Assembly (NCBI GenBank): GCA_022340775.1
Contig: JAJDNH010000073.1
Coordinates: 12,519 to 76,518 of the forward strand
Source: Acidobacteriota bacterium
GTDB taxonomy: Bacteria; Acidobacteriota; Thermoanaerobaculia; Thermoanaerobaculales; Sulfomarinibacteraceae
Length of the DNA stretch: 64,000 nucleotides
Direction: 5' to 3'
The position numbers were made by a program, and so were the translations under genes. Below the pieces are notes generated by a model. It was given only the letters and a program-made list of their open reading frames with translations. It had not been told where the DNA came from and searched no databases. Positions 1-64,000 of this stretch are shown here, piece after piece. Positions within the stretch are counted from its first letter, which is position 1. Every line of letters starts with the position of its first letter.

Positions 1-588
1 GCGGAGACCGCCGCTCCGCTCGTCCTCCGCTCACCACACCCCAGCATCTTCCTGGCCGGTGCACACCTCAATGACATCGAGTGGCTCGACGCTTCGACTG
101 CGCGCGACTATGCACTGCTCGGCCGATCGATCCTGGACAGGATCCGGTCCTTTCCCAGACCGGTCGTCGCCGCGGTAGATGGGGCTTGTGCCGGCGGCGG
201 GCTGGATCTGGTCCTCGCCTGCGACGCGGTCGTCGCCTCGGAGTCGGCCTCGTTCGCCCACCCTGGCGTGAGGCGCGGCCTCATCACCGGCTGGGGAGGA
301 ACCGTCGAGGTCCCCAGTCGCAGCGGAAGACCACATGCCGTCGGTGTCATCCTGGAAGGTGGTGCGACCGAGGCGCCGGCAGCGTACGCCGCCGGCTGGG
401 TGGCGCACCTGACGGACGATCCGGTCGCCGCTGCGCACGAGGAAGCACGGAGACTGGACCACCTCAACCCCTTCAGGCTGCGGCTGTGGCGCGTGCTCAG
501 GGGTGCCTGTTTCATTGACATCTTCCACGCCAGCGTGGTACACAACGAGAGGATGCAGCAGGCTCTGAACGACCGGGAGACACCATGA
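1..588 (+). CDS. Enoyl-CoA hydratase/isomerase (crotonase) family protein, 5'-truncated by window edge
   Basis: Frame +1 is open from base 1: IFLAGAHL...FPRPVVAAVDGACAGGGLDLVLACD...SASFAHPGVRRGLITGWGGT, typical crotonase motifs; stop overlaps next ATG (ATGA 585-588). Confidence 0.85.
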   Translation, partial: AETAAPLVLRSPHPSIFLAGAHLNDIEWLDASTARDYALLGRSILDRIRSFPRPVVAAVDGACAGGGLDLVLACDAVVASESASFAHPGVRRGLITGWGGTVEVPSRSGRPHAVGVILEGGATEAPAAYAAGWVAHLTDDPVAAAHEEARRLDHLNPFRLRLWRVLRGACFIDIFHASVVHNERMQQALNDRETP

Positions 589-1826
589 GTGGCACGATTC
601 TTCTTGCCGACGACAGCCTCACGATCCAGAAGGTCGTGGAACTCACCTTCGCGGACACCGACAACTCGGTCGTCACCGTCTCGAGCGGCGATGAGCTCCT
701 CGAGAGGCTTCCCGCGGTCGCACCGGACCTGGTCATCTGCGACGTCATCATGCCGGGGACTGATGGATACTCGGTCTGTCAGGCCATCAAGTCGAATCCA
801 GCCACCTTGCACATCCCCGTCGTGCTGCTCACCGGCACTTTCGAGCCCTTCGACAGGGACCGTGCGCTGGCCGCCGGGTGCGACGAGATCATCACCAAGC
901 CGTTCGAGGCCAGGAAGCTCGTCGACACCGTGGAGAGCCTGCTCCAGGGGACCCCCGAGACGGTTCCCGAGACGGCCCCGATTGAGCCCACGGAAGGCGA
1001 GCCGCAGTTCGAAGGTGCCTTCACCCCGACGGAGCCAGAAGCGGTGCCGCCAACCGACGAGTTTGGCACCCGCCTCGCTCCTGCAGCCCCTCCATCGGGG
1101 GGTGAGCCGGGAGAAGCCAGCGAGGGGATGGACTTCACGACCACCGGTTTCGCCGAGATGGAGGAAGCCGGCCAGCGGGGCGAAGAAATGGCGTACCAGA
1201 CCCCCTCGGAGGGTCTGGAGTTCGACCTCGAGGAGGTGAAGCAGCCACTCGAGCCCGAAGCGGCGGAAAGAAGCGCTCCTCCGCCCTTTTCCGCGGAAGA
1301 CGAGCCGGCCGGTAGCGACGAGACCGCGGAGCCGTTTTCCCCCGCTGCCGACACCGCATCCGCTGTCACTGCTCCGCCACCGCCACCACCCTTCGGCGAG
1401 CCCGACGAGCCGTTCGAGGAGGCTCCGCCGGCCGTGGAAGAAGCCGAGGAGCAGGAGCCCCCGATCGGCTCGGTCACCGAGCCGGTTGCGGTTCCCCCCG
1501 TCGGGACGTTCGAGACGCCCGCTTTCGGCCAGGCCGGGGGCGATGAAGAAGAGGTGGCAGAGGAGGCCGCGGCGGCGGCGGTCCCTGAACCTACTGAGGC
1601 AGAGCCCGTCACACAGACAGCAGACGCCGAGCCACCCGCGCCCGCAGAGCCGCTGTCGGAGGACGAGGTGGAGCGAATCGCCCGCCGTGTGATCGACCTC
1701 TTCGCCTCCCGGCTGGAGCAGATCGCGTGGGAAGTGATCCCGGATATGGCGGAGATCGTGGTGCGCGAACGCGTGCGCCAGATCGAGGCCGAAGCGGAGA
1801 GCGACCAGCCCGAAGCGACCCACTGA
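585..1826 (+). CDS. RomR-like response regulator: N-terminal receiver, long acidic Pro/Glu/Ala linker, short conserved C-terminal helical domain
   Basis: Receiver ILLADDSLTIQKV...DLVICDVIMP...LLTGTFEPFD...ITKPF; low-complexity E/P/A linker; C-terminal LEQIAWEVIPDMAEIVVRERV resembles the RomR-C region as I recall it. Confidence 0.75.
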   Translation: MSGTILLADDSLTIQKVVELTFADTDNSVVTVSSGDELLERLPAVAPDLVICDVIMPGTDGYSVCQAIKSNPATLHIPVVLLTGTFEPFDRDRALAAGCDEIITKPFEARKLVDTVESLLQGTPETVPETAPIEPTEGEPQFEGAFTPTEPEAVPPTDEFGTRLAPAAPPSGGEPGEASEGMDFTTTGFAEMEEAGQRGEEMAYQTPSEGLEFDLEEVKQPLEPEAAERSAPPPFSAEDEPAGSDETAEPFSPAADTASAVTAPPPPPPFGEPDEPFEEAPPAVEEAEEQEPPIGSVTEPVAVPPVGTFETPAFGQAGGDEEEVAEEAAAAAVPEPTEAEPVTQTADAEPPAPAEPLSEDEVERIARRVIDLFASRLEQIAWEVIPDMAEIVVRERVRQIEAEAESDQPEATH

Positions 1827-1964: not shown

Positions 1965-4577
1965 ATGAGCTCTGACAGCCTTCCAACGCGCTACGATCCG
2001 GAGAGCTTCGAGGGCCGCTGGTACTCGAAATGGGAAAGCTCCGGGGCGTTTTCACCAACACTCGAGGGAGACCGGCCTCCCTTCTGCATCGTCATCCCCC
2101 CGCCCAACGTCACCGGTGTTCTCCATATCGGCCATGCCCTGCAGTTCACGCTGCAAGATCTGATCATCCGCTGGCGGCGCATGCAGGGTTACGACGCACT
2201 CTGGCTGCCCGGCACGGACCACGCCGGCATCGCCACCCAGGTCATGGTCGAGCGCCAGCTGGCCAAAGAAGGAACCACTCGACAGGCCCTCGGGCGCGAC
2301 CGGTTCCTCGAACGGATGTGGCAGTGGAAGGAGGAACACAAGGACAACATCTCCCGCCAGGCGAAAGCGCTCGGCTCGTCGTGCGACTGGAGCCGCGAGA
2401 GGTTCACGCTCGACGACGGCCTGTCGCGAGCCGTTCGCCGCGCGTTCGTCACCCTCCACAGCCAGGGTCTCATCTACCGCGACCAGAGGCTGATCAACTG
2501 GTGCCCCCGCTGCCACACCGCACTCTCGGACCTCGAGGTCGTCCACAAGGAGCAGCAGGGGCGCATGTGGGACTTCGCCTACCCCCTCGAGGACGAGGGC
2601 GAGATCGTGGTCTCCACGACTCGACCGGAGACGATGCTCGGCGACACAGCGATCGCGGTCCACCCGGCCGACGGACGGTACTCCGGGCTGGTGGGATTCC
2701 ATGCCATCCACCCGTTCCTCGACCGCCGAGTGCCGCTAATCGCGGACGCCGAGCTGGTGGACCCCGAGTTCGGTACGGGCGCCGTCAAGGTGACTCCGGC
2801 ACACGACCCTAACGACTTCCAGACCGGCAAGCGTCATGAGCTCGAGTTCATCAACATCCTCGACAACGAGGGCAAGATCAACGACGCCGGCGGACAGTTT
2901 GCAGGCCAGGACCGGTTTGCTGCCCGCACAGCGGTGGTCCAGGCGCTCAAAGCGAAAGGCCTGCTACGGGGCGAGCGCCCGCACGAGATGGCCATCGGAC
3001 ACTGCCAGCGGTGTGACACGATCGTCGAGCCTCTCCTGTCCCGCCAGTGGTTCGTCGATGCCAAGCCGCTGGCGGAGAAGGCCCTCGAGGTTGTTCGTGA
3101 CGGCCGCGTCAAGGTCGTTCCCGACTTCTGGGTGGCGACCTACGAGCACTGGCTCGAGAACATCCAGGACTGGTGCATCTCCCGCCAGCTCTGGTGGGGG
3201 CACCGGATCCCCGCGTTCACATGCGCCCAGGGCCACCTCCTCGTGTGCGAGGAAGATCCCGACTCCTGTCCGACGTGCGGCCAGGCGGTGGAGCAGGACC
3301 CGGACGTTCTCGACACCTGGTTTTCATCCGGTCTGTGGCCGTTCTCGACCCTCGGATGGCCCGACGAAACCGAGGATCTGAAGCGGTTCTACCCGACCTC
3401 GGTGCTGATCACCGGGTTCGACATCCTGTTCTTCTGGGTGGCGCGGATGATCATGATGGGCTGCCACCTCACCGGCGAGGTCCCATTCCACGCCGTTCAC
3501 CTGACGGGTCTTGTCAGGGACGCGAGCGGCGACAAGATGTCCAAGACCAAGGGCAACACGATCGACCCACTGGAGGTCGTGTCCGAGTATGGCGCCGACG
3601 CAGTTCGGTTCACGCTCGCCGCTCTGGCCTCTCCCGGTCGGGATCTGCCGCTCGACATCCGGAGGATGGAGGGGTATCGGGCGTTCGCCACCAAGGTGTG
3701 GAACGCGGCCCGCTTCGTGCAGATGAAGCTGGAGGGTGACGAGCAGCCGCTCGGTGATCTTTCTCCCGCCGACCTCGGCCCCGCGGAGCGCTGGATCCTC
3801 TCCCGGCTGGCCCACACCGTGCGCAGCGTTAACCGCGCGTGGGAGTGCTACCGGTTCGACGAGGGTTGCCACGAGCTCTATCACTTCGTCTGGCACGCCT
3901 ACTGCGACTGGTACCTGGAGCTCGCAAAAGGGGTCACCGACCGGCGTGAGGTGCGCTCGGTCTTGCGGGGCGTGCTGCTCGAAGCGCTCAAGCTCCTTCA
4001 CCCAGTGATGCCCTACATCACTGAGGAGATCGGGCACCATCTGGGACATGAGGAGATGCTGATCCTCACTCGGTACCCGGACCCTGACGGACGGTGGGAG
4101 GACAACGAGCTGGAAGCCGATTTCTCGGCGCTTCAGGAGCTCGTGGCGGGCCTGCGCTCCTATCGAGCCATGGTCGGGCTCAGCCAGCGTCATCCGATCG
4201 CCGTAACGCTCGTCGGAGTGGACGAACACCGCGCTGGTTTCCTGACCTCGCAGACCGATCAGCTCGAGCAGCTGGCAGCCGTTGCATCGATCAGGCTCGG
4301 TACAGCACCGGCCCAGGCCATCCACGAGCTCCTCGGTGGCATGGAGGTGGCTCTCGAGCTACCGCCCGGCTCCCTGGGGGAGGATCAGCTAGTTCGGCTT
4401 CAGAAGCAGATCGAGCAGCTGGACCGCAACCGCGCCGGTCTCGAGGGGCGCCTATCGAACAGTAGCTTTACCGCGAAGGCGCCGCCGGAGGTCGTGGACG
4501 GCGCCCGGCAGCAACTCGCGGAGGTCACGACACGGCTCGAACGGCTTCGACAGACGATCGAGGCGAGCGCCGGGTGA
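1965..4577 (+). CDS. valS: Valine--tRNA ligase
   Basis: PPPNVTGVLHIGH (HIGH), WCISRQLWWGHRIP, DVLDTWFSS, KMSKTKGN (KMSKS-like), C-terminal coiled coil; SD AGGAGAGG before ATG 1965. Confidence 0.98.
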   Translation: MSSDSLPTRYDPESFEGRWYSKWESSGAFSPTLEGDRPPFCIVIPPPNVTGVLHIGHALQFTLQDLIIRWRRMQGYDALWLPGTDHAGIATQVMVERQLAKEGTTRQALGRDRFLERMWQWKEEHKDNISRQAKALGSSCDWSRERFTLDDGLSRAVRRAFVTLHSQGLIYRDQRLINWCPRCHTALSDLEVVHKEQQGRMWDFAYPLEDEGEIVVSTTRPETMLGDTAIAVHPADGRYSGLVGFHAIHPFLDRRVPLIADAELVDPEFGTGAVKVTPAHDPNDFQTGKRHELEFINILDNEGKINDAGGQFAGQDRFAARTAVVQALKAKGLLRGERPHEMAIGHCQRCDTIVEPLLSRQWFVDAKPLAEKALEVVRDGRVKVVPDFWVATYEHWLENIQDWCISRQLWWGHRIPAFTCAQGHLLVCEEDPDSCPTCGQAVEQDPDVLDTWFSSGLWPFSTLGWPDETEDLKRFYPTSVLITGFDILFFWVARMIMMGCHLTGEVPFHAVHLTGLVRDASGDKMSKTKGNTIDPLEVVSEYGADAVRFTLAALASPGRDLPLDIRRMEGYRAFATKVWNAARFVQMKLEGDEQPLGDLSPADLGPAERWILSRLAHTVRSVNRAWECYRFDEGCHELYHFVWHAYCDWYLELAKGVTDRREVRSVLRGVLLEALKLLHPVMPYITEEIGHHLGHEEMLILTRYPDPDGRWEDNELEADFSALQELVAGLRSYRAMVGLSQRHPIAVTLVGVDEHRAGFLTSQTDQLEQLAAVASIRLGTAPAQAIHELLGGMEVALELPPGSLGEDQLVRLQKQIEQLDRNRAGLEGRLSNSSFTAKAPPEVVDGARQQLAEVTTRLERLRQTIEASAG

Positions 4578-5350
4578 GCGACGCGGTTCTCGTACTGTAC
4601 GGAGCCATTTCCGCGTACGTCGAGAACCTCGTCTACCTGCCAACTATCGACTCCACTCACGAGACTGCTCTCCGCCTGATGCAGCAGATGGACGAGGAGG
4701 ACCAGCAGCTGCGGACGACGGTCCTGATCGCCCGGCACCAGACCGGCGGCCACGGGCGCGAAGGCAGGCCGTGGCAGTCGCCTGAGGGAGGCCTCTACCT
4801 GAACTGGGTGCGCTCCGATGTCGATCACACGATCATCAACATGCTGCCCATGCTTGCCGCCGCCGCTGCCACCGAAGCCGCCACGAAGGCTGGGATCGCA
4901 AATGTGGGCATCAAGTGGCCCAACGACCTCCTGGTGGATGGCGCCAAGATCGGCGGCATCCTTGTCCACGTTCGCCGGGGCGACACGATCTGGGCGACGA
5001 TCGGCCTGGGACTCAACGTCGCCACGAAGCCACGTCTTCCCGGCGACGCGACGCCGCCGGTTACGTGCCTGGCCGACCACATCGCTTCCCGGCCGATCGA
5101 TGCCTGGATCTCGGAGCTCACCGTTGACTTCCTGGCGGCGCTCGATCAGGGGATCGAGGATCCGCAGATCGCTCGGACCAGGTGGCGAGAGCGTCTCATC
5201 CATCAGCCGGGGGACACTCTTGAGGTGCGTCTGGCGTCCGGAGAGCAGGTCCGGGGGCACTATGCGGGGGTGACCAACGACGGCTACCTGATGCTCGAGA
5301 ACGACACCGGGACACGTACCGTCTCGTCGGGGGAGATCTTCGGACGATAG
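4574..5350 (+). CDS. birA: Biotin--[acetyl-CoA-carboxylase] ligase (no N-terminal HTH)
   Basis: IDST, ARHQTGGHGREGRPWQSPEGGLY, IKWPNDLLVDGAKIGGIL; GTGA overlap with valS stop. Confidence 0.92.
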   Translation: MSDAVLVLYGAISAYVENLVYLPTIDSTHETALRLMQQMDEEDQQLRTTVLIARHQTGGHGREGRPWQSPEGGLYLNWVRSDVDHTIINMLPMLAAAAATEAATKAGIANVGIKWPNDLLVDGAKIGGILVHVRRGDTIWATIGLGLNVATKPRLPGDATPPVTCLADHIASRPIDAWISELTVDFLAALDQGIEDPQIARTRWRERLIHQPGDTLEVRLASGEQVRGHYAGVTNDGYLMLENDTGTRTVSSGEIFGR

Positions 5351-45540: not shown

Positions 45541-46276
45541 GGGATGTGTTCCCCGTCGGGCTGCCGGAGGGGGACGGCGACGGAACCTGCCGCGCGAGGT
45601 AAGCCGCCAGGCGCTGCTCGCCATCGTCCTCGAGCGCAATGAACTGAACCGCGAAACCCAGCACCCTTTCCTTGAACGGCTCCGATGTCCGCACCACACG
45701 AGCCCTTGCCGCAACCGGCCGGTCTTCACCGGGCAGGCGGAACGTAACGCGCACATCCGAACCCGCGCGGAAAGCGCCGGGGCCTTCCAGAAGCATGCCA
45801 GAAGACGACACGTTAACCGCTCGACACACATCCTCGCCCAGCTCTTCACCGAGGTCGACGTCGACGTGAACGAAACTGCGGAGGGCGATGCGCGGCGCGA
45901 CCTCCAACAGGTCGGAGAATGCCTTCCACAGCCGTGCCCCGGTCCACTCGACTGAGATCGCACGGTTGGCGCCGCGATCCACATGGCGCGTGGCCGCATC
46001 CAGGTTGTCGGAGCTAGCCAGCAGCAGCACGCCCGATGCGCGACAGGACGACCCTTCGGCCCGGACCGCATCGAGCAACACCTCGACCGACACATCATCG
46101 AGCGGGAACGTCACGACAATGAGATCGAATGGGGTGTCACGAACCAGCTCCGCGACTGTGCCACACGCCGACGCCGTAAGAACCTGGAACTCCTCTCGAT
46201 GCAGCATCGGCGCCACCCTCTCGACCGCCTCGCGGGAGGCGCCAACCAGGAGCACGTGGCGTCGCGGCATCACCAT
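45533..46276 (-). CDS. Pseudo-receiver domain plus PilZ domain protein
   Basis: N-terminal receiver-like fold lacking acidic residues (LLVGAS, FDLIVVT); PilZ motifs RIALR (RxxxR) and NVSSSG (D/NxSxxG). Confidence 0.75.
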   Translation of the reverse strand: MVMPRRHVLLVGASREAVERVAPMLHREEFQVLTASACGTVAELVRDTPFDLIVVTFPLDDVSVEVLLDAVRAEGSSCRASGVLLLASSDNLDAATRHVDRGANRAISVEWTGARLWKAFSDLLEVAPRIALRSFVHVDVDLGEELGEDVCRAVNVSSSGMLLEGPGAFRAGSDVRVTFRLPGEDRPVAARARVVRTSEPFKERVLGFAVQFIALEDDGEQRLAAYLARQVPSPSPSGSPTGNTSRA

Positions 46277-56634: not shown

Positions 56635-59600
56635 TCATCGTAGCAAAGGTCCCGCCGTCCCGGCCGAACGTGGGAGCTCGAGACACACGACCAGGCCCTT
56701 CGCACCGTTGGCGGCAGTCACCGACCCATGGCAGCGCGAAACGACCTGTCGCACGAGGGCAAGCCCGAGCCCGGTTCCCGAGGAGGTCGTCGAGAAGTGA
56801 GGGTTGAAGAGGTCGTGAAGCTGGTCCGGCGGCACGCCGCCACCGGTGTCCCGAACCTCGATGGTGACCGTGTCAGCCGTACAGCGCGCTCGGACCGTGA
56901 TCTCGCCTGGACCTTCATCCACGGCGTCGACGCTGTTCTGAATCAGGTTGCCGAGCGCGCGACGGAGCCACTGCCGGTCCCCAACCACCGAGCAACGACC
57001 GCAGCCAGAGGTGTCGCGGACCAGGTGAATGCCACGCCTTTGCAGTATCCCGAGCCCACTCAGCGCCGAGTCGATAAGGTCGGTCACGGCCACCTCCTCG
57101 GCCTCCCAGCGCTCGAGCGCTACGAGGTTCGAGAATGACGATGCCATCTGCTGAAGCCGTTCGACCTGAGTTGTGATCTCCACACACGCCTCACGCAACA
57201 GGACGTCCCTGTCCTGATCACGGCGCGCCATGGCGTCCTCCAGCTCCTGAACCCAGAGCCGTATCGGAGTCAGCGGGTTCTTGACCTCGTGGGCAACGAT
57301 CCTGGCCAGCTGGGCCAGCTGCTGGAGCCGATCCGCCCGCACGACGTCGCTGACGTCGTCCACCACCGCTACCAGACCTCGGGTTCCATCGGGCAGCGGC
57401 ACTCCGGCCACCCCAAGTCTCCACGTCACGTCCGTCCCCGGAAACGGCTGCACCGTGACCACGACTGGCCGGCCGTCTTCGCCGGAGCGCTCCGCAAGCT
57501 CCGTGACGTGACGTACCACGACGTCGCCCTCAGCCTCCAGCAGCGTCTTGGCACTCGGGTTGGCGAAGCGGACAGTGGAATCCGCGTCGAGTACCAGAAC
57601 CGCCTGGGCCAGTGTCGAAAGCGTGATCCGCAGCAGCTCCTCCTGTGAGCGCAAGCTGGTTTCACGACGTTGTACCTCGAGACTCATGAGTTGAACCGCG
57701 TCGAGCACTTCTGCGAGATCGCGCTCGGCTGGCCGCGGAACCTGGCCGACCGGATCGCCACGCTGCAGCCGTCTCGCCAGCTCGACCAAGTCTCGTAGCG
57801 AGGCGCCAACTCTTCCTTCCACTCTGGACGTGACGAAGAGCGTCAGCATCGCCGAGAGGAGGGCTCCAACCAGGAGCCAGTCGATGACGCCGGGGACCGC
57901 CTGGCGCCGCACTGGATCGGCTAGGAACATTTCGAGAAGCAGCGACCGGCCCTCGATACTCACACCGCCGGCTGCCAGTAGCTGCCTTCCCGTCCGACGG
58001 ACCACCGGGTCGGACCGTCCGAGCTGGAAGCGTGAGAACGCCACCGGATCCGGCAGGCCGGGGAGAGCCCCTACCGTCAGCAGGTCCGGGCGCGAGGTGG
58101 CGGCGACGTTGGCACCGTCGAACAGCACGACCTCTCCACCAACCTGACGCGCTAGCCACTTGGCGAGGTCCGCGTTGACCGGGAGCCCACCTTCGAGGTG
58201 CTGGGAAGTCCACCGTGCCGCCTGAATGCCGTCGCCGCCAATGACTCGGGCCAAGCGCACCTCTTCCTGGCGGAGGCGCTGGTGGAGGAAAAGTGTCAGA
58301 AGCACCAGGGGAAGAACCACACCGCCCACGACCAGCAGGCGCAGCCGACCGCCGAAGGTCGATAGGCTGTCCCTCCGCAGACGCGGGGGAAAGGCGATCA
58401 GGAGTGCGACTGCCGCCCACAGAGAGGCTAGGAGCGAACGAAGCAGCCAGACAGGCAGCGAAGGGTAGTTCGCAACTGCCGCCACCAGCCAGTCGCCGTG
58501 ACGAGCGACATGGGCCAGCCTCCGATCAGAGCCGATGCCGACGAGGACCCATCCACCACCGGCATGAAAGAGCTTTCCCGCTACCTCGGGCCCAAGTCCA
58601 CGGATCTCCTCCCGCTCCGACGCGACCGCATGTCCCGCCCGTGTCAGCGCCGCGAACCAGACCGCCGCGGCTGCTCCATCGAGGGTAACTCCCCCTGCTG
58701 GCCATCCGCGCAGCCACGACCACGGTGGAACCGCCGCCCACAGCTGCGCCGTCCCCACTGCCGTCGTCGCCGAGCTGAGCGCCCACGTGCGGAGCAGCCT
58801 CGTCGACTCGCGCCCCACATTCAGCACGCCCCAGCGGGAGATCTCCGCCCCCTCAGGATCTACAACGACCAGCATCACCGGGCGCTGCCAGCGATCCAGC
58901 TTCCATTGCTTCGCCAGTACCGGCGCAAGGTCCGAGAGGTGACATGCCGGCAGCGGTGCCGGCAGGAGATCCCCCAAGTCCAAGGTCGCTGCCGGCGGCG
59001 ACGGTGCTGTCCGCAACTCCTCGGCAGCCTGAATCTGCTCGGGCACGCGGAGGCCTTGCGTCACCGCCATCAGCACGCCCACGCTCAGGGGAATCACCAA
59101 CCGGGCTCGTGGCCACTGCCGGCGGCGCAGGTCGTAGCGCAGCCAGCCCGTCGCCAGCCAGGCGGCAGCAACGGCCCAGGCGGCTCCCCACCCGGGCCGA
59201 AAGACCGTTCTGGGAAGCCACTCGGCGACCACCGTGCTCGGGAGCAGCAGCGCGCTGACCGGGATCGCGGCCATCGCCGTCAGCACCAGCAGCCGGGCCG
59301 GCGCAGCCGGCAGGTTGCGCGCACAGCGCCAGATTGCGGACCCTCCGAGAAGGAGACCCAAGCCGACGACTAACGGTGGCACGGCATGCCAGGCCAGCCC
59401 GGCCGCTAGCCCACCGGCCACGACGGCGGTTGGAGCGAGCGACGGCAGCCACACGGTTCCAATCAGGATGAGTATCCCCCACGGCAACCACCGCGCCGGG
59501 GCTGGCCCGGGCAGTGCCTCTCGTCTCAGGGCTACGGGGATCGAGACACCTGGAAATCGATCAGCCTGGACGAGGTCGCGCGCCTGGTTTCCGGCGGTGC

Positions 59601-60264
59601 CGAGCGACAGCAGCCAGCCGCGCCCCACCCGCATTCCCCAGATCGAGTGGGCGAGCAGCGGCGAACGGTCAACCACGGTCACGGCTCCCACCAGCCGGCC
59701 CTCGAACATCACAGGCTCACGAACGGCCAACGCCGCCGACCCCGCCCACCAGGTCACGCTCCACCGCCGTTGCCCGATCGGACGAACGCCAGGGGGCAGT
59801 TCTCTCGCCACGCCACTCCATGCCACCAGCTGCCCCCGGTCGTCAGACAGGTAGGCACTGCGGCCGGAGGAGCGCCCGACCATCCGGTCCAGAGCTCTGA
59901 ACAGACGCTCCGGGTCGGCGACCTCGCCGGTGGCGGCAAAAACACGCCGGACCTCTCCACTCACCGCCACTCGGCTGGCGTCGCCGAGCATCCCCTCGCA
60001 GTGCTCGGACAGTCGATCCGCAAGCTGTTGCCGGTCTGGAGGATGCGGGTGCCACCCGATGGCCAACGGTACCGCCAAGATGACCGCTGCCCAGGGCACC
60101 AGGGCACGGTGCCTCGGACGCGCCAACACGGCCAGACCAGCCACCACCGCGGCCAGAGCTAGCGGCGTCGGCGCCCACCCCGGCCAGGGCCCGCACACGA
60201 CGACGGCCGCCAAGGCCAGCCACCATGATCGTGTCAACGATGCACGACCACCACCGGGGTCCAT
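56635..60264 (-). CDS. Large multi-TM sensor histidine kinase (NtrY-like HAMP-PAS-HisKA-HATPase)
   Basis: VAHEVKNPLTPI, NLIQNSVDA, DTGGGV, FSTTSSGTGLGL; about 850 aa membrane/extracytoplasmic N-terminus. Confidence 0.92.
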   Translation of the reverse strand: MDPGGGRASLTRSWWLALAAVVVCGPWPGWAPTPLALAAVVAGLAVLARPRHRALVPWAAVILAVPLAIGWHPHPPDRQQLADRLSEHCEGMLGDASRVAVSGEVRRVFAATGEVADPERLFRALDRMVGRSSGRSAYLSDDRGQLVAWSGVARELPPGVRPIGQRRWSVTWWAGSAALAVREPVMFEGRLVGAVTVVDRSPLLAHSIWGMRVGRGWLLSLGTAGNQARDLVQADRFPGVSIPVALRREALPGPAPARWLPWGILILIGTVWLPSLAPTAVVAGGLAAGLAWHAVPPLVVGLGLLLGGSAIWRCARNLPAAPARLLVLTAMAAIPVSALLLPSTVVAEWLPRTVFRPGWGAAWAVAAAWLATGWLRYDLRRRQWPRARLVIPLSVGVLMAVTQGLRVPEQIQAAEELRTAPSPPAATLDLGDLLPAPLPACHLSDLAPVLAKQWKLDRWQRPVMLVVVDPEGAEISRWGVLNVGRESTRLLRTWALSSATTAVGTAQLWAAVPPWSWLRGWPAGGVTLDGAAAAVWFAALTRAGHAVASEREEIRGLGPEVAGKLFHAGGGWVLVGIGSDRRLAHVARHGDWLVAAVANYPSLPVWLLRSLLASLWAAVALLIAFPPRLRRDSLSTFGGRLRLLVVGGVVLPLVLLTLFLHQRLRQEEVRLARVIGGDGIQAARWTSQHLEGGLPVNADLAKWLARQVGGEVVLFDGANVAATSRPDLLTVGALPGLPDPVAFSRFQLGRSDPVVRRTGRQLLAAGGVSIEGRSLLLEMFLADPVRRQAVPGVIDWLLVGALLSAMLTLFVTSRVEGRVGASLRDLVELARRLQRGDPVGQVPRPAERDLAEVLDAVQLMSLEVQRRETSLRSQEELLRITLSTLAQAVLVLDADSTVRFANPSAKTLLEAEGDVVVRHVTELAERSGEDGRPVVVTVQPFPGTDVTWRLGVAGVPLPDGTRGLVAVVDDVSDVVRADRLQQLAQLARIVAHEVKNPLTPIRLWVQELEDAMARRDQDRDVLLREACVEITTQVERLQQMASSFSNLVALERWEAEEVAVTDLIDSALSGLGILQRRGIHLVRDTSGCGRCSVVGDRQWLRRALGNLIQNSVDAVDEGPGEITVRARCTADTVTIEVRDTGGGVPPDQLHDLFNPHFSTTSSGTGLGLALVRQVVSRCHGSVTAANGAKGLVVCLELPRSAGTAGPLLR

Positions 60265-60271
60265 GGCAAGC

Positions 60272-60277
60272 AGTATA
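60272..60277 (-). promoter_or_regulatory. Putative -10 hexamer TATACT, 7 nt before kinase ATG (leaderless)
   Basis: Minus strand TATACT-gcttgcc-ATG(60264). Confidence 0.5.
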
Positions 60278-60291
60278 GCGAGGGTCCGCGA

Positions 60292-60300
60292 TGCTAACAT
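60292..60300 (+). promoter_or_regulatory. Putative extended -10 promoter (TGcTAACAT) for gatE-gatD
   Basis: TG-n-TAnnnT about 35 nt upstream of ATG 60336, which has a GGAGG SD. Confidence 0.45.
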
Positions 60301-60335
60301 CGGCCGACGTGCCGCTTGACGTCACGCGGAGGACC

Positions 60336-62300
60336 ATGAGCACAGCCTTCGACTACGCCGCCGCCGGTCTCAAAGTTGGTCTCGAAGTTCATCAGCAGCT
60401 TCTCACCCAGGAGAAGCTCTTCTGCCGGTGCCCCGCGGGAATGTACACGTCACAGCACGACGGCTCGGTCCTGCGCCACATGCGGCCGACACTGTCCGAG
60501 CTCGGCGAATATGATGGGACCGCACTGATGGAGTTCAAGACCAAAAAGAACATCATCTACCTACTGCACGAGTCCAACGTCTGCACCTACGAGATGGACG
60601 ACACGCCGCCGTTCCTGCTCAATCCACGCGCCCTCGACATCGCCATCGAGCAGTGCCTGATGCTGGGATGCGACATCGTTGACGAGGTTCACATCGCTCG
60701 CAAGCAGTACCTCGATGGTTCGATCCCCACCGGCTTCCAGCGCACAGCAGTAGTTGGCGTCGCCGGCCGCATCCCCTTCCAAGGCCGAGAGCTCACCATC
60801 ACTCAGGTCACGCTCGAGGAGGACAGCTGTCGCGAGGTCTCGGACCGCGGCCACCTCATCGTATGGCGCACCGACCGGCTGGGAATGCCCCTCATTGAGA
60901 CCGTGACCGCACCGGACCTGAGGACCCCGGAAGAGGTCGAGGAGGCCATTCTCCTCATTGGACGCGTATGCCGCTCAACCGGCCATGTCCGTGTCGGGAT
61001 CGGCGCCAGTCGGCAGGACGTCAACGTCTCGGTCACCGGTGGTCGCCGGGTTGAGATCAAGGGCGTGTCAAAGGCCGGCTGGGCCCGCAAACTGGTGCAC
61101 ACGGAGGCGATTCGGCAGGTCAGGTTGCTCGAGCTTCGCGACGAGCTCCACCGGCGCGGCCTGACTCGACCTGCCGACATCGGCATCGAGCATTTCGACG
61201 TCACGGATCTGTTCGTCGCCTCCGAGCTGAGCCAGCTGCGCAGGGAATCGTGGCAGAGGTTGATCGACGAGGAAGGGCGCAGGCCCGGTTTCGAGCTCGG
61301 CCGCGGACCATTCAGCGTCAGGGCCGTTCGCCTACCGGGTCTGGCCGGGACAATCTCTCACCCGACTCAGCCGGGGCTCACGTTCGCTCACGAGCTCGCC
61401 GGACGGATCCGCGTCATCGCCACCCTCGACCAGCAGCCAACGCTTTTCCATAGTGAGAAGTGGCCTGACTACGCGGAATCCCGGGTCGAGTTCGACCGCC
61501 TCCTGCGCCGAACGGCTTGTGGGCCGGACGACGCCATCGTGGTCGTCTGGGGCGCCGAGGAGGACACCGTCACCGCTGCCGAGGAGGTACGGATCCGGTA
61601 TGCCGACGCCACCGACGGCGTCCCCCACGAGACCCGGCAGCCACTGCCGGACGGGAGGACCGACTTCGAACGGATCCTGCCAGGCCCGGACCGGATGTAC
61701 CCCGATACCGACAGCCCGCCGCAGCGGCTGATGCCTGAGCGGATCGAGCAGCTCCGGGCGCCCCTGCCACCAGCTCCCTGGGTACGCGAGGGACGTTATG
61801 CCGCCGCGGGCATCCCTCGCTCCACGATTCGCTACCTCATCCGGCGCGGCGGTGCGCGGCTCGTGGACCTGGTGGTGAACGAGGGGGGCGCCGACCTCCG
61901 GCGTGCGTGCTTCCTCTTCGGAGAGGAGCTCAAGGCGCTCCGTCGCCGGGGCCTCGGCATCGATCGGATCGCCGACGCCCAATGGCTCAGGTTCTTCGAG
62001 ATCCTTGAAAGCTCACCGGTCATCTGGGAAGCCCGATCGAGGCTGGTCGAGGTGATGGCGGGGTCGCCCGCCACCGATCCCGGAGAGCTGGCTTCCAGCC
62101 TGGACCTCGGGAACGCCCCCGAAGGATGGCGCGAACGGGTCGTCAGCCTCGCGCGCACCTCGGTGCTCGATCACTCAAACGGTAGGCCCGGCCAGCGTCT
62201 CCGATTCCTGATGGGTCTGGCGATGTACGAGCTGAGAGGGAAGGTCTCGGCCCACGCAGTCGAAAACCTCCTGCTGGAGGAGCTGGGAGGTGCTCAATGA
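60336..62300 (+). CDS. gatE: Glu-tRNA(Gln) amidotransferase subunit E (archaeal type)
   Basis: GLKVGLEVHQQL, DGSIPTGFQRT, LEEDSCR, DRLGMPLIE, RQDVNVSV, RVEIKGV, AspRS-like insertion, LPGPDRMYPDTD, YqeY-like tail LMG.AM.ELRGK. Confidence 0.93.
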   Translation: MSTAFDYAAAGLKVGLEVHQQLLTQEKLFCRCPAGMYTSQHDGSVLRHMRPTLSELGEYDGTALMEFKTKKNIIYLLHESNVCTYEMDDTPPFLLNPRALDIAIEQCLMLGCDIVDEVHIARKQYLDGSIPTGFQRTAVVGVAGRIPFQGRELTITQVTLEEDSCREVSDRGHLIVWRTDRLGMPLIETVTAPDLRTPEEVEEAILLIGRVCRSTGHVRVGIGASRQDVNVSVTGGRRVEIKGVSKAGWARKLVHTEAIRQVRLLELRDELHRRGLTRPADIGIEHFDVTDLFVASELSQLRRESWQRLIDEEGRRPGFELGRGPFSVRAVRLPGLAGTISHPTQPGLTFAHELAGRIRVIATLDQQPTLFHSEKWPDYAESRVEFDRLLRRTACGPDDAIVVVWGAEEDTVTAAEEVRIRYADATDGVPHETRQPLPDGRTDFERILPGPDRMYPDTDSPPQRLMPERIEQLRAPLPPAPWVREGRYAAAGIPRSTIRYLIRRGGARLVDLVVNEGGADLRRACFLFGEELKALRRRGLGIDRIADAQWLRFFEILESSPVIWEARSRLVEVMAGSPATDPGELASSLDLGNAPEGWRERVVSLARTSVLDHSNGRPGQRLRFLMGLAMYELRGKVSAHAVENLLLEELGGAQ

Positions 62301-63688
62301 GCTGCTCCGATGAGCTGAAGGGCTACCGGGGAAGGGCGCGCCAGCGTCTCGGCGAGTGGGGTGTCCGTGTATGGAGCGATGTGCGGGTCACCAATACTGC
62401 TGGGTCGGTCTTCGAGGGCGTCATCCTGCCACGATCGGAGACGTTCGACGACCTCCACCTGGTTCTCAAGCTCCACAACGGCTACAACGTCGGGGTCCAC
62501 GTCGATCGAATCTCGACGATCGAGGAAATCGGGTATCGCGAGGCGGTCTACAAGATCCCGGAGAAGGAGTTCCCGGCCCGCCCCGACCTTCCCAAGGTGA
62601 CGCTTCTCGGCACCGGCGGTACGATCGCGTCACGTCTCGACTACCGCACCGGAGCGGTCATCCCCGCCTTCACCCCGGGGGAGCTGTACGGCGCCGTGCC
62701 CGAGCTCGCCGACCTGTGCAACCTGACGACCAAGAAGATCTTCGGCGTGTTCTCCGAGAACATGTCGTGGCCCGAGTACGCCACGCTCGCGGGAGCCATC
62801 GGCGAGGAGATCGAGGCAGGCGCTGACGGCATCGTCATCGGCCACGGCACCGACACAATGGGACACACGGCAGCGATCCTGAGTTTCATGGTGCAGAACC
62901 TGCCGGTACCAGTCGTTCTTGTCGGCAGCCAGCGCAGCTCCGACAGGCCCTCGTCCGATGCCGCCCTCAACCTCATCCACGCCGTTCGTGCAGCCGCCTA
63001 CGGCGACATCGCAGAAGTGCAGATCTGCATGTTCGGACCGACTTCGGACCGCTATGCCCTGCTTCACCGCGGCACCCGATGCCGAAAGATGCACAGCTCC
63101 TACCGGTCGACCTTCCGCACTGTCGGCGACACACCGTTGTGCCTCGTCAGTCGGGACGAGTTCACGATTCTGAACGGCGACTACGCCAGACGTGATAGCG
63201 AGCGGCAGGTTCGGATAGATCCCACCTATGACGATCGCGTTACGATCCTCTACTACTACCCAGGCATGAAGCCGGACCTCGTGGACGCCCTTGTCGACAG
63301 GGGCTACCGCGGAATCGTCATCGCCGGAACCGGTCTCGGCCACGTCAACAAGCCTCTTTACCCGGCCCTCGAGCGGGCCGTACGGGCGGGCGTCCAGGTC
63401 ATGATGACCGTCCAAACTCTGTGGGGCTACGCGCAGATGTACGTGTACGACACCGGCCGCGATCTCCTCGATCTCGGAGTCGTCCCCCTCGACAACATGT
63501 TGCCGGAAACCGCACTGATGAAGCTGGGTTGGGTGCTCGGCCACACGGACCAGCACGCCGAGGTAAAACGCCTCATGCAGACCCCCATCAGCCACGAGAT
63601 CACCGCACGCGAGCCGCACAACGGCTACCTCATCCTGCAGGGCGGCTTGCCCGAGGTCGAGGACTTCATCACGAGCCACTGGAAGTGA
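62297..63688 (+). CDS. gatD: Glu-tRNA(Gln) amidotransferase subunit D (asparaginase-like glutaminase, archaeal type)
   Basis: GatD N-domain FEGVILPRSE...LKLHNGYNVGV; TGGTIASRLDYRTGAV, HGTDTM, VGSQRSSDRPSSDA, RKMHSS; ATGA overlap with gatE. Confidence 0.93.
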   Translation: MSCSDELKGYRGRARQRLGEWGVRVWSDVRVTNTAGSVFEGVILPRSETFDDLHLVLKLHNGYNVGVHVDRISTIEEIGYREAVYKIPEKEFPARPDLPKVTLLGTGGTIASRLDYRTGAVIPAFTPGELYGAVPELADLCNLTTKKIFGVFSENMSWPEYATLAGAIGEEIEAGADGIVIGHGTDTMGHTAAILSFMVQNLPVPVVLVGSQRSSDRPSSDAALNLIHAVRAAAYGDIAEVQICMFGPTSDRYALLHRGTRCRKMHSSYRSTFRTVGDTPLCLVSRDEFTILNGDYARRDSERQVRIDPTYDDRVTILYYYPGMKPDLVDALVDRGYRGIVIAGTGLGHVNKPLYPALERAVRAGVQVMMTVQTLWGYAQMYVYDTGRDLLDLGVVPLDNMLPETALMKLGWVLGHTDQHAEVKRLMQTPISHEITAREPHNGYLILQGGLPEVEDFITSHWK

Positions 63689-63724
63689 TCAGGAACGACT
63701 CCCGGTTCTTCCGGTACACCGCGG

Positions 63725-63730
63725 TACCAT
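63725..63730 (+). promoter_or_regulatory. Putative -10 hexamer TACCAT, 6 nt before ATG 63737 (leaderless)
   Basis: TACCAT-aagggc-ATG. Confidence 0.4.
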
Positions 63731-63736
63731 AAGGGC

Positions 63737-64000
63737 ATGTCGTTGCCGGACCGTCCATCGGGTTGTGATGGGTTCTCGATCCTGGAGCTCGTGGCGGCAC
63801 TGGCCATTCTCGGCTTTGCCATCCTCGTGACGGCTGCGGTGTTGAGCACCGAGTCAGACCGTGCAGCGCGGCTGGCCGCGCGACACCAAGCCGTGCACGC
63901 ATTGGAGGCCACACTCGAGGATGTTCGCGCCGGCATCGTCCCGTTGCAGTCGAGCTCGCCCCAGACTGGAGAGATCGTCCAGCCAGCGGCAGCCGACAAC
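63737..64000 (+). CDS. Prepilin-type (type IV pilin / T2SS pseudopilin) protein, 3'-truncated; absent from the ORF track
   Basis: Hand translation MSLPDRPSGCDG|FSILELVAALAILGFAILV...; G|F cleavage site and Glu5; open to window end. Confidence 0.85.
   Translation, partial: MSLPDRPSGCDGFSILELVAALAILGFAILVTAAVLSTESDRAARLAARHQAVHALEATLEDVRAGIVPLQSSSPQTGEIVQPAAADN

What the first reader, a model, noticed from the sequence alone, without database searches (positions are those of the whole stretch)
585..1826. RomR-like / PopZ-like polar scaffold candidate directly upstream of valS
Seen: receiver with intact acidic pocket, phospho-Asp and Lys; about 240 aa acidic E/P/A low-complexity linker; short C-terminal amphipathic segment (LEQIAWEVIPDMAEIVVRERVRQIE); valS follows 140 nt later. 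Known: Myxococcus RomR has this three-part layout and positions the MglA polarity module; alphaproteobacterial PopZ has an acidic Pro-rich disordered middle and a helical C-terminus. From memory (unverified), both genes often sit next to valS. Inference: a polar hub protein in a lineage where cell-polarity machinery is largely undescribed, possibly linked to the prepilin and PilZ genes in this window.
Basis: partly seen in the sequence, partly recalled or inferred. Interest (0 to 1): 0.7.

Follow-up and report, generated by a model that had tools for sequence, protein, structure and literature searches.

The report
RomR polarity regulator upstream of valS
This gene encodes an acidobacterial version of RomR, the pole-marking response regulator that positions the MglA motility switch in Myxococcus; it is an ordinary member of a known family, but RomR and the Caulobacter pole organiser PopZ both sit directly upstream of valS, which hints at a deeper, unproven link.

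Summary
ORF 585-1826 (+) encodes 413 aa: an intact receiver (D9/D10/D53/T83/K105), a 235-aa disordered acidic E/P/A linker (net charge -54) and a conserved about 50-aa C-terminal helix. valS starts 138 nt downstream.

It is a RomR orthologue. The receiver is the reciprocal best hit of RomR in Cystobacter, Corallococcus and Geobacter. A profile of the C-terminal block hits one place per genome, always in that same ORF. The invariant Trp/Pro of RomR-C and the published RomX-contact residues V17/E108 are present. The genome also carries mglB-mglA and a pilB-pilT-pilC cluster. Across 151 Acidobacteriota genomes, RomR-C and MglA co-occur (103 both, 3 and 13 single, 32 neither).

RomR homologues in Acidobacteria were already catalogued in 2012, so this is a new member of a known kind. 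It is not PopZ: three DUF2497 model tests failed and there is no PopZ N-terminus. romR->valS recurs in three phyla and popZ->valS across Alphaproteobacteria. My own RomR-C and PopZ-C profiles align only weakly (hhalign 62-81 %, P about 1e-5). Common ancestry is therefore possible, about 0.3, and unproven.

RomX and MglC were not found. The prepilin and PilZ genes lie 44-62 kb away, and nothing links them to romR.

The parts
1..588 (+). 3' part of an enoyl-CoA hydratase/isomerase gene; its stop codon overlaps the romR start (ATGA)
   Evidence: Pfam ECH_1, E 1.2e-21. The sequence caccATGAgt at 581-590 shows the overlap. The same ECH->romR order is seen in relative L094.
585..1826 (+). romR orthologue, 413 aa
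   Evidence: A GGGAGA Shine-Dalgarno sequence lies 5 nt upstream.
585..947 (+). Receiver (REC) domain, residues 1-121, with D9/D10/D53/T83/K105 and the RomX-contact residues V17 and E108
   Evidence: Pfam PF00072. 49-52 % identical to C. fuscus RomR REC. Reciprocal best hit in three genomes. AlphaFold2 pLDDT about 85-97. The roles of V17 and E108 come from bioRxiv 10.1101/2024.02.20.581209.
948..1652 (+). Disordered acidic E/P/A-rich linker, residues 122-356, net charge -54
   Evidence: Composition. pLDDT mostly below 50. Poorly alignable among relatives.
1134..1187 (+). Conserved mid-linker motif F-T-T-T-G-F-A-E-M (residues 184-192), overlapping a predicted short helix at residues 188-201; found only in this clade
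   Evidence: F184, G188, F189, M192 and A195 are invariant in alignment A1. Helix 188-201 has pLDDT 60-72. The motif is in 118 of 120 closest relatives and 0 of 8 Myxococcota/Geobacter RomRs.
1653..1805 (+). RomR-C: Glu-rich C-terminal helix, residues 357-407, with invariant W382 and P386
   Evidence: Alignments A1 and A2. The profile hits one place per genome in 8 Myxococcota/Geobacter genomes and in 106 of 151 Acidobacteriota genomes. Predicted helix 359-407.
1965..4577 (+). valS (valyl-tRNA synthetase), the conserved downstream neighbour of romR; an alternative GTG start lies at 1932
   Evidence: Pfam tRNA-synt_1, Anticodon_1 and Val_tRNA-synt_C. AGGAGAGG precedes the ATG at 1965. No + strand terminator and no Rfam element lie in the gap.
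4574..5350 (+). Biotin-protein ligase (birA-like) gene, overlapping the valS stop codon; last gene of the apparent ECH-romR-valS-birA same-strand run
   Evidence: Pfam BPL_LplA_LipB and BPL_C. In relative L094 birA follows romR directly, with no valS between.

Best explanation
The ORF encodes the orthologue of RomR, the polar scaffold of the MglA polarity module, in an Acidobacteriota MAG (by named relatives, probably Thermoanaerobaculia). Orthology is shown here. The mechanism below is inferred from Myxococcus xanthus work. The C-terminal helix (RomR-C, 357-407) oligomerises into dimers or trimers, helps take the protein to the cell poles, and binds the Roadblock protein MglC through a surface that includes the invariant Trp (W382 here, W394 in M. 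xanthus). That tethers the GTPase-activating protein MglB. The receiver binds RomX through a surface that includes V17 and E108, and RomX in turn holds MglA-GTP. The protein therefore gathers both the activating and the inactivating partners of MglA at the poles and sets which pole is active. The acidic disordered linker acts as a spacer and as a second pole-targeting or partner-binding region; the conserved helix at 188-201 is its most likely docking motif. Phosphorylation at D53 by an unidentified kinase would modulate or switch polarity. The most likely output in this organism is polar control of the type IVa pilus machine encoded elsewhere in the genome.
For: Architecture: REC, disordered linker and C-terminal helix, as published for RomR (PMC3441718; PMC10329633).

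REC orthology: BLASTP gives 49 % identity over 136 aa to C. fuscus RomR, E 6e-40. C. fuscus RomR REC finds the window ORF as best of 29 receiver-type matches (126 bits against 74 for the next). The window REC finds the RomR ORFs of Cystobacter, Corallococcus and Geobacter as best hits (120-124 bits against 67-83).

RomR-C homology: a 51-position profile hits one place in each of 8 Myxococcota/Geobacter genomes (E 1.5e-11 to 4.7e-6; Nannocystis has one extra weak hit), and wherever REC was also searched it hits the same ORF. hhalign of non-Myxococcota against Myxococcota RomR-C gives 98.6 %. W and P are invariant, as in Keilberg's logo.

Functional residues: D53, V17, E108 and W382 are conserved (W394 from PMC12719032).

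Partners in the genome: the adjacent mglB-mglA genes match M. xanthus MglB and MglA chains at E 1.1e-57 and 2.4e-91. PilB, PilT and PilC are present.

Co-occurrence in 151 Acidobacteriota genomes: 103 have both, 3 RomR-C only, 13 MglA only, 32 neither; odds ratio 85, Fisher P 6e-19.

Synteny: romR->valS on the same strand in 6 of 8 Myxococcota/Geobacter loci and 15 of 30 acidobacterial loci.
Against: RomX and MglC, the two direct partners in the inferred mechanism, were not identified in this genome. Pfam Roadblock finds only MglB, and a motif filter for RomX gave no convincing candidate. The assembly is a 93 % complete MAG in 251 contigs, so absence cannot be concluded either. The linker is strongly acidic (net -54) whereas C. 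fuscus RomR's linker is Pro/Gly-rich and slightly basic (+7), so any linker-dependent function may differ. No Frz-type kinase was looked for. There are no localisation or expression data. The co-occurrence statistic ignores phylogenetic relatedness, and 13 genomes have MglA without RomR-C. All mechanism steps are carried over from M. xanthus.
Confidence: 0.85

Rival explanations
1. It is a true RomR orthologue but works as a static pole marker rather than a switchable one. As in Bdellovibrio, it would be a hub at one pole that organises pili and c-di-GMP signalling proteins, with no Frz-type reversals and possibly no direct MglA control.
For: Keilberg et al. found a Frz system in only 10 of 26 genomes with intact RomR. 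In B. bacteriovorus RomR is an essential hub with many direct partners and showed no direct MglA interaction in the POLAR assay (PMC11025332). No Frz system was looked for here. The linker chemistry and its clade-specific motif differ from Myxococcus.
Against: D53 and the whole phospho-acceptor pocket are invariant across the family, which argues that phosphorylation matters. MglA and MglB are present and co-occur tightly with RomR-C in the phylum.
Confidence: 0.3
2. It is a PopZ-like, self-assembling general pole organiser that works independently of the MglA module.
For: It shares with PopZ an acidic Pro-rich disordered middle and a short C-terminal helical oligomerisation region. It sits directly upstream of valS, like popZ. 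Profile-profile similarity is weak but reproducible.
Against: Pfam DUF2497 fails on the gene, on isolated RomR-C segments and on eight RomR-bearing genomes. The PopZ N-terminal MEEILASIRRII helix is absent and a receiver stands in its place. The PopZ-C HMM does not list this genome's RomR among 572 hits at E up to 1000. The tight co-occurrence with MglA points to the MglA module.
Confidence: 0.07
3. It is a generic orphan response regulator whose acidic tail is low-complexity filler, with no role in polarity.
For: Databases name the relatives only 'response regulator' or 'CheY-like chemotaxis protein'. Pfam and NCBIfam recognise only the receiver.
Against: The C-terminal block is conserved with invariant Trp and Pro from Acidobacteriota to Myxococcota and Geobacter. 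The gene is single-copy, syntenic with valS and co-occurs with MglA.
Confidence: 0.03

Closest known systems
RomR of Myxococcus xanthus (MXAN_4461; Leonardy 2007, Keilberg 2012, Carreira 2023, Kodesia 2025). It is represented here by the 430-aa RomR of Cystobacter fuscus (L086 1474..2766, - strand), because M. xanthus itself was not among the genomes fetched.
   Same: The order is the same: REC, then a disordered linker of about 240-260 aa, then an alpha-helical Glu-rich C-terminus of about 50 aa with the invariant Trp and Pro. The phospho-acceptor is at position 53 and V17 and E108 are at the same numbering. The gene is single-copy, lies directly upstream of valS on the same strand, and co-occurs with mglA/mglB and type IV pili.
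   Different: The linker is acidic E/P/A-rich (net -54) rather than made of Pro/Gly-rich PGMARPG repeats (net +7). It carries a clade-specific conserved helix motif, FTTTGFAEM. RomX, MglC and Frz have not been shown in this genome, and there are no experimental data for any acidobacterial RomR.
RomR of Bdellovibrio bacteriovorus (hub of the prey-invading pole; PMC3983030, PMC11025332)
   Same: It belongs to the same family and serves as a polar hub linked to pili and MglA.
   Different: In Bdellovibrio RomR is essential, marks a single pole and has many lineage-specific partners. Which mode applies in Acidobacteriota is unknown. No Bdellovibrio sequence was compared here.
PopZ (Pfam DUF2497, PF10691) of Caulobacter and other Alphaproteobacteria
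   Same: Both have an acidic, Pro-rich disordered middle and a short C-terminal helical region with a Trp, a Pro and a following (L/I)(V/A)E..V..E(I/V) pattern. The literature reports that both oligomerise and act as polar hubs. Both genes lie directly upstream of valS on the same strand (126-nt gap in Caulobacter, 138 nt here). My profile-profile alignment gives 62-81 % probability in one consistent register.
   Different: PopZ has an N-terminal client-binding helix where RomR has a receiver. Pfam's DUF2497 model does not match RomR-C. The Trp is offset by two residues relative to the Pro. HMM-to-sequence hits between the two families are all at E of 1.6 or worse. No protein combining features of both families was found.

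Membership tests
RomR | N-terminal receiver domain that groups with RomR receivers rather than with other response regulators | tested here: met
   Reciprocal best hits with a wide margin: 126 against 74 bits, and 120-124 against 67-83 bits in three genomes. BLASTP gives 49 % identity, E 6e-40. No full receiver phylogeny was built.
RomR | RomR-C: a conserved alpha-helical, Glu-rich C-terminal region of about 50 aa with an invariant Trp and Pro (Keilberg 2012) | tested here: met
   The profile A2 hits one site per genome in 8 Myxococcota/Geobacter genomes. hhalign between the clades gives 98.6 %. W382 and P386 are invariant. Helix 359-407 is predicted.
RomR | Unstructured, non-conserved linker between REC and RomR-C, with lineage-specific composition | tested here: met
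   pLDDT is below 50 over most of 128-348. The region aligns poorly. Composition is E/P/A here against P/G/A in C. fuscus.
RomR | Phospho-acceptor Asp (D53) with an intact acidic pocket and conserved Lys | tested here: met
   D9, D10, D53 and K105 are invariant and T83 is at least 90 % conserved in alignment A1.
RomR | Co-occurrence with MglA and MglB | tested here: met
   mglB-mglA lie on contig C188. Phylum-wide 2x2 table: 103/3/13/32, odds ratio 85.
RomR | A RomX partner that binds the receiver through E108 and V17 | tested here: inconclusive
   The RomR-side contact residues V17 and E108 are present and invariant. No romX gene was identified; a small-ORF filter gave no convincing candidate.
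RomR | An MglC partner that binds RomR-C through the conserved Trp | tested here: inconclusive
   W382 is conserved. Pfam Roadblock finds only MglB in this genome, even at E up to 10. MglC is too divergent for that model.
RomR | Asymmetric bipolar localisation and a requirement for motility | not testable with these tools
   This needs microscopy and genetics.
PopZ (DUF2497) | Match to Pfam PF10691 at the C-terminus | tested here: not met
   There is no hit on the protein, none on six isolated RomR-C segments at E up to 10, none at the gene in a whole-genome scan at E up to 10, and none at any RomR locus in eight genomes.
PopZ (DUF2497) | N-terminal conserved helix (MEEILASIRRII) that binds client proteins | tested here: not met
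   The N-terminus is a receiver domain. The PopZ helix is invariant in alignment A3 and is also present in the long PopZ variants.
PopZ (DUF2497) | Remote similarity of the C-terminal helices at profile level | tested here: inconclusive
   A narrow PopZ profile gives 2.6 %. Broad profiles give 64 %, P 6.5e-5, and 0 of 400 column shuffles reach that score. The result is stable with larger profiles. Subsets give 81 % and 62 %, and reversed controls 2-3 %. In mutual HMM searches each family ranks just below the other's true members, all at E of 1.6 or worse.
PopZ (DUF2497) | Gene position directly upstream of valS on the same strand | tested here: met
   popZ->valS is seen in Caulobacter and in about 22 of 30 alphaproteobacterial loci. 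romR->valS is seen here.

The most novel reading that the evidence does not exclude
RomR and PopZ, the two best-studied bacterial pole-organising proteins, may descend from one ancestral gene that sat upstream of valS. That ancestor would have had a disordered acidic/Pro-rich region followed by a C-terminal helix-Pro-helix oligomerisation module. RomR-C and the PopZ H3H4/DUF2497 region would be homologous, and the lineages would differ in the N-terminal module: a receiver in RomR and a client-binding helix in PopZ. The acidobacterial RomRs, whose linkers are acidic like PopZ's, would then resemble the ancestral state more than the Pro/Gly-rich Myxococcus protein does.
Probability: 0.3. Interest if true: 0.7.

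Novelty: new member of a known kind. Interest (0 to 1): 0.3.

Why it matters
As a RomR orthologue the gene is unsurprising. The family was defined in 2007-2012, and Acidobacteria were already on the published list. What this work adds is scale. RomR-C is a single-copy gene in about 70 % of 151 sampled Acidobacteriota genomes and tracks MglA closely, so the MglA/MglB/RomR polarity module is a mainstream feature of a large, mostly uncultured phylum. These RomRs have linker chemistry opposite to the Myxococcus model, plus a conserved linker motif that no one has studied. That gives a natural experiment on what the disordered linker does.

The second point is evolutionary. romR->valS is conserved across Myxococcota, Geobacter/Geomonas and Acidobacteriota, and popZ occupies the same slot across Alphaproteobacteria. 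If the weak similarity between RomR-C and PopZ-C reflects homology, two textbook polarity systems would share an origin, and the open question of how RomR-C finds the pole (stated as unknown in PMC10329633) could be approached with what is known about PopZ self-assembly.

Tried and rejected
1. PopZ membership through Pfam DUF2497 failed in three tests.
2. hhalign with a Caulobacter-only PopZ profile gave 2.6 %, out of register. That profile was too narrow (Neff 1.4) and was replaced by broad profiles.
3. I tested whether long alphaproteobacterial ORFs that match only the end of DUF2497 (303-533 aa) are REC-bearing intermediates. They are not: they are PopZ proteins with expanded acidic repeat linkers and the normal N-terminal helix.
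4. I looked for MglC with the Pfam Roadblock model at E up to 10. It found only MglB and a 13.8-bit hit inside a 1066-aa frame.
5. I planned to find RomX and MglC by concatenating small ORFs into 5000-aa pseudo-queries against the PDB. I abandoned this before spending any searches, because receivers, thioredoxins and similar proteins in the blocks would flood the 60-row output.
6. A filter for small helical ORFs carrying the RomX helix-3 signature passed 22 ORFs, only one of which carries the signature, and none is convincing.
7. My regular expression for PilZ found only spurious matches and missed the real PilZ domain, which the Pfam genome search then located.
8. The genome search does not accept a locus as 'of'. 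I solved this by first obtaining a genome handle.
9. M. xanthus itself was not among the species representatives returned, so C. fuscus and Corallococcus RomR served as the Myxococcaceae reference.
10. A Rfam scan and a promoter/terminator scan of the romR-valS gap found nothing relevant.
Full report
OBSERVATION. The ORF at 585..1826 (+) is real and encodes 413 aa. Pfam finds a single domain, Response_reg, at residues 5-116 (E 7.6e-23). NCBIfam gives only sub-cut-off receiver matches. The acidic pocket (D9, D10), phospho-acceptor (D53), T83 and K105 are all present. Residues 122-356 (235 aa) are E 21 %, P 19 %, A 16 %, with 58 acidic and 4 basic residues. An AlphaFold2 model made with 25 relatives shows a confident receiver (pLDDT about 85-97), a disordered linker containing one short helix at 188-201, and a long C-terminal helix at 359-407 with pLDDT 70-89. 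romR's ATG overlaps the stop of the upstream enoyl-CoA hydratase gene (ATGA) and follows a GGGAGA ribosome-binding site. valS begins most plausibly at the ATG at 1965 behind AGGAGAGG, 138 nt after the romR stop. No + strand terminator or Rfam element lies between. birA overlaps the valS stop.

THE FAMILY. More than 4,600 database proteins match at E of 0.001 or better. The best 120 are all 358-487 aa, full-length relatives of the same architecture, and the few with source names come from Acidobacteriota or Thermoanaerobaculales MAGs labelled only 'response regulator' or 'CheY-like'. An exhaustive search gave 1,278 representatives at E of 1e-30 or better. In an alignment of 25 relatives, three parts are conserved. 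The receiver is nearly invariant. A short motif sits in the middle of the linker (F184, G188, F189, M192 and A195 are invariant). A C-terminal block spans 357-403 with invariant W382 and P386. The C-terminal block recurs in relatives down to about 38 % overall identity.

IS IT RomR? Keilberg et al. 2012 define RomR as REC (1-115), an unstructured linker (116-368) and RomR-C (369-420). RomR-C is alpha-helical and Glu-rich with an invariant Trp and Pro, and the authors already list homologues in Acidobacteria (PMC3441718). To test this directly, I used the M. xanthus MglA sequence printed from the PDB to fetch named Myxococcota and Geobacter genomes. A 51-position profile of the C-terminal block alone (A2) hit one place in each of Cystobacter fuscus, Corallococcus, Sorangium, Minicystis, Geomonas, Geobacter and an Anaeromyxobacteraceae genome, and one strong plus one weak place in Nannocystis; the strong hits have whole-genome E-values from 1.5e-11 to 4.7e-6. 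In C. fuscus the hit lies in a 430-aa ORF with REC (Asp at position 53), a PGMARPG-repeat linker and the C-terminus ...EKIAWEVVPQLAETIIREELERLIKD. The receivers are 49 % identical over 136 gap-free residues (E 6e-40). The best-hit relation is reciprocal and clear. C. fuscus RomR REC scores 126 bits on the window ORF against 74 for the next of 29 receiver-type matches. The window REC scores 120-124 bits on the RomR ORFs of Cystobacter, Corallococcus and Geobacter against 67-83 for the runners-up. hhalign between non-Myxococcota and Myxococcota RomR-C profiles gives 98.6 %. Residues with published roles are in place: D53; V17 and E108, which are predicted to contact RomX, with the E108A mutant weakening binding (bioRxiv 10.1101/2024.02.20.581209); and the Trp whose M. 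xanthus counterpart W394 is critical for MglC binding (PMC12719032). I conclude that this is a RomR orthologue.

GENOME CONTEXT. The assembly (3.83 Mb, 251 contigs, 93 % complete) carries adjacent mglB and mglA genes that match M. xanthus MglB and MglA chains at E 1.1e-57 and 2.4e-91. It also carries a pilB-pilT-pilC cluster followed by a sensor kinase and a sigma-54-type regulator. PilB scores 722 bits on TIGR02538 (cut-off 675.65), PilT scores 486 bits on TIGR01420 (cut-off 319.1), and PilC best matches the Myxococcus-type model. Across 151 genomes sampled evenly over the phylum, RomR-C is present in 106, always as one copy, and MglA in 116. The table is 103 both, 3 RomR-C only (all weak matches), 13 MglA only and 32 neither, giving an odds ratio of 85 and Fisher P of 6e-19, not corrected for phylogeny. 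RomX and MglC could not be identified with the tools at hand and remain open.

valS SYNTENY. romR is followed directly by valS on the same strand in Cystobacter, Corallococcus, Geobacter, Geomonas, the Anaeromyxobacteraceae genome and Nannocystis, which is 6 of 8 loci, and in 15 of 30 acidobacterial loci. One relative has ECH-romR-birA with no valS between. It is also correct for PopZ. In Caulobacter, popZ (DUF2497) lies 126 nt upstream of valS on the same strand. PopZ is single-copy in 66 of 81 alphaproteobacterial genomes, and about 22 of 30 loci show the same arrangement.

IS IT PopZ, OR RELATED TO PopZ? It is not a member. Pfam's DUF2497 model fails on the protein, on six isolated RomR-C segments, on this genome at E up to 10 and at the RomR loci of eight genomes. 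The PopZ N-terminal helix is replaced by a receiver. A distant relationship cannot be excluded. With broad, redundancy-filtered profiles (54 RomR-C and 24 PopZ-C sequences), hhalign gives 64 % probability, P 6.5e-5, with 29 columns and Pro aligned on Pro. None of 400 column-shuffled nulls reaches the observed score of 23.3 (maximum 20.0), and reversed profiles give 12-13. The value is unchanged with 87 against 39 sequences. It holds separately for Myxococcota/Geobacter RomRs (81 %) and for all the others (62 %). In a search of about 53,000 ORFs, the first non-PopZ hit of the PopZ-C HMM is Corallococcus RomR, and 7 PopZ proteins fall in ranks 11-30 of the RomR-C HMM, directly after the true RomRs. 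All of these hits have E of 1.6 or worse, and the window's own RomR is not among them. Short charged amphipathic helices can converge, and column shuffling is a lenient null. I put common ancestry at about 0.3. The RomR papers I opened mention PopZ only as an example of a polar factor or as an assay tool; the other papers returned by those searches were not read.

HOW IT PROBABLY WORKS. Only orthology is shown here; the mechanism is carried over from M. xanthus. RomR-C is required and sufficient for oligomerisation into dimers and trimers, is the interface to the MglC dimer, and contributes to polar targeting. MglC in turn binds MglB, forming a positive-feedback complex that MglA-GTP breaks (PMC10329633; PMC12719032). 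RomX bridges the receiver and MglA-GTP. The linker is an independent pole-targeting determinant in M. xanthus. In this clade it is acidic rather than Pro/Gly-rich and carries a conserved helix motif found in 118 of 120 close relatives and in no Myxococcota/Geobacter RomR. That motif is the best candidate for a lineage-specific docking site. The likely output is polar control of type IVa pili.

THE WINDOW'S PREPILIN AND PilZ GENES. A prepilin-type N-terminus starts at 63689 and is the first of three consecutive pseudopilin-like genes that run past the window's end. One of the genome's seven PilZ domains lies at window 45593-45865 on the - strand. These lie 62 and 44 kb from romR with unrelated genes between, so position gives no evidence of a functional link.

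VERDICT. This is a correctly observed, correctly guessed but ordinary RomR orthologue: a new member of a known kind, in a phylum where the family was already recorded. The points worth keeping are the phylum-wide prevalence, the acidic linker with its own motif, and the shared position upstream of valS with PopZ.

Noticed in passing
window 1134-1187 (residues 184-201): A conserved motif, F-T-x-[ST]-G-F-x-x-M, overlaps a predicted short helix inside the otherwise disordered linker. It is present in 118 of 120 closest relatives and 44 of 106 more distant representatives, and absent from all 8 Myxococcota/Geobacter RomRs. It is a candidate lineage-specific partner-binding or pole-targeting motif.
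   Followed up: partly
window 60291-63688 (+): Two adjacent genes encode a 669-aa GatB/GatE-type catalytic subunit and a GatD-type subunit (GatD_N plus asparaginase domains). This is the archaeal-type GatDE amidotransferase pair, which is unusual in a bacterium.
   Followed up: no
window 63689-64000 (+), continuing to contig C27:77623: Three consecutive small genes have prepilin-type hydrophobic N-termini (GFSILELV..., GATLLELV..., RGFALLLAL...), which makes a pseudopilin cluster. None matches any NCBIfam model.
   Followed up: partly
window 45593-45865 (-): A PilZ domain (45.8 bits) lies here, one of seven in the genome. A nitroreductase-family match lies next to it in another reading frame.
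   Followed up: partly
genome G000, several contigs: Four MglA-like matches at E of 1e-30 or better occur in this genome, and 2-5 in many Acidobacteriota genomes. Some lie in open frames of 300-680 aa, which suggests MglA paralogues fused to other domains.
   Followed up: no
genome contig C178:7944-8723 (-): A 259-aa protein about 1 kb beyond the end of the pilB-pilT-pilC-kinase-regulator cluster has a sub-cut-off match to an MshE-related cyclic-di-GMP-binding motif (30.3 bits against a cut-off of 38).
   Followed up: no
loci L126 and L127 (alphaproteobacterial genomes G059 and G016): These PopZ proteins are expanded to 487-533 aa by tandem repeats in the linker (for example INPEEMMEPAAPE units). 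They keep the N-terminal helix and the DUF2497 end and still lie upstream of valS. Several divergent PopZ proteins lack the Pro of the 'LP' kink.
   Followed up: partly
window 56635-60300 (-): A 1,220-aa histidine kinase (HisKA and HATPase_c domains at its C-terminus) has a long, unannotated N-terminal region.
   Followed up: no
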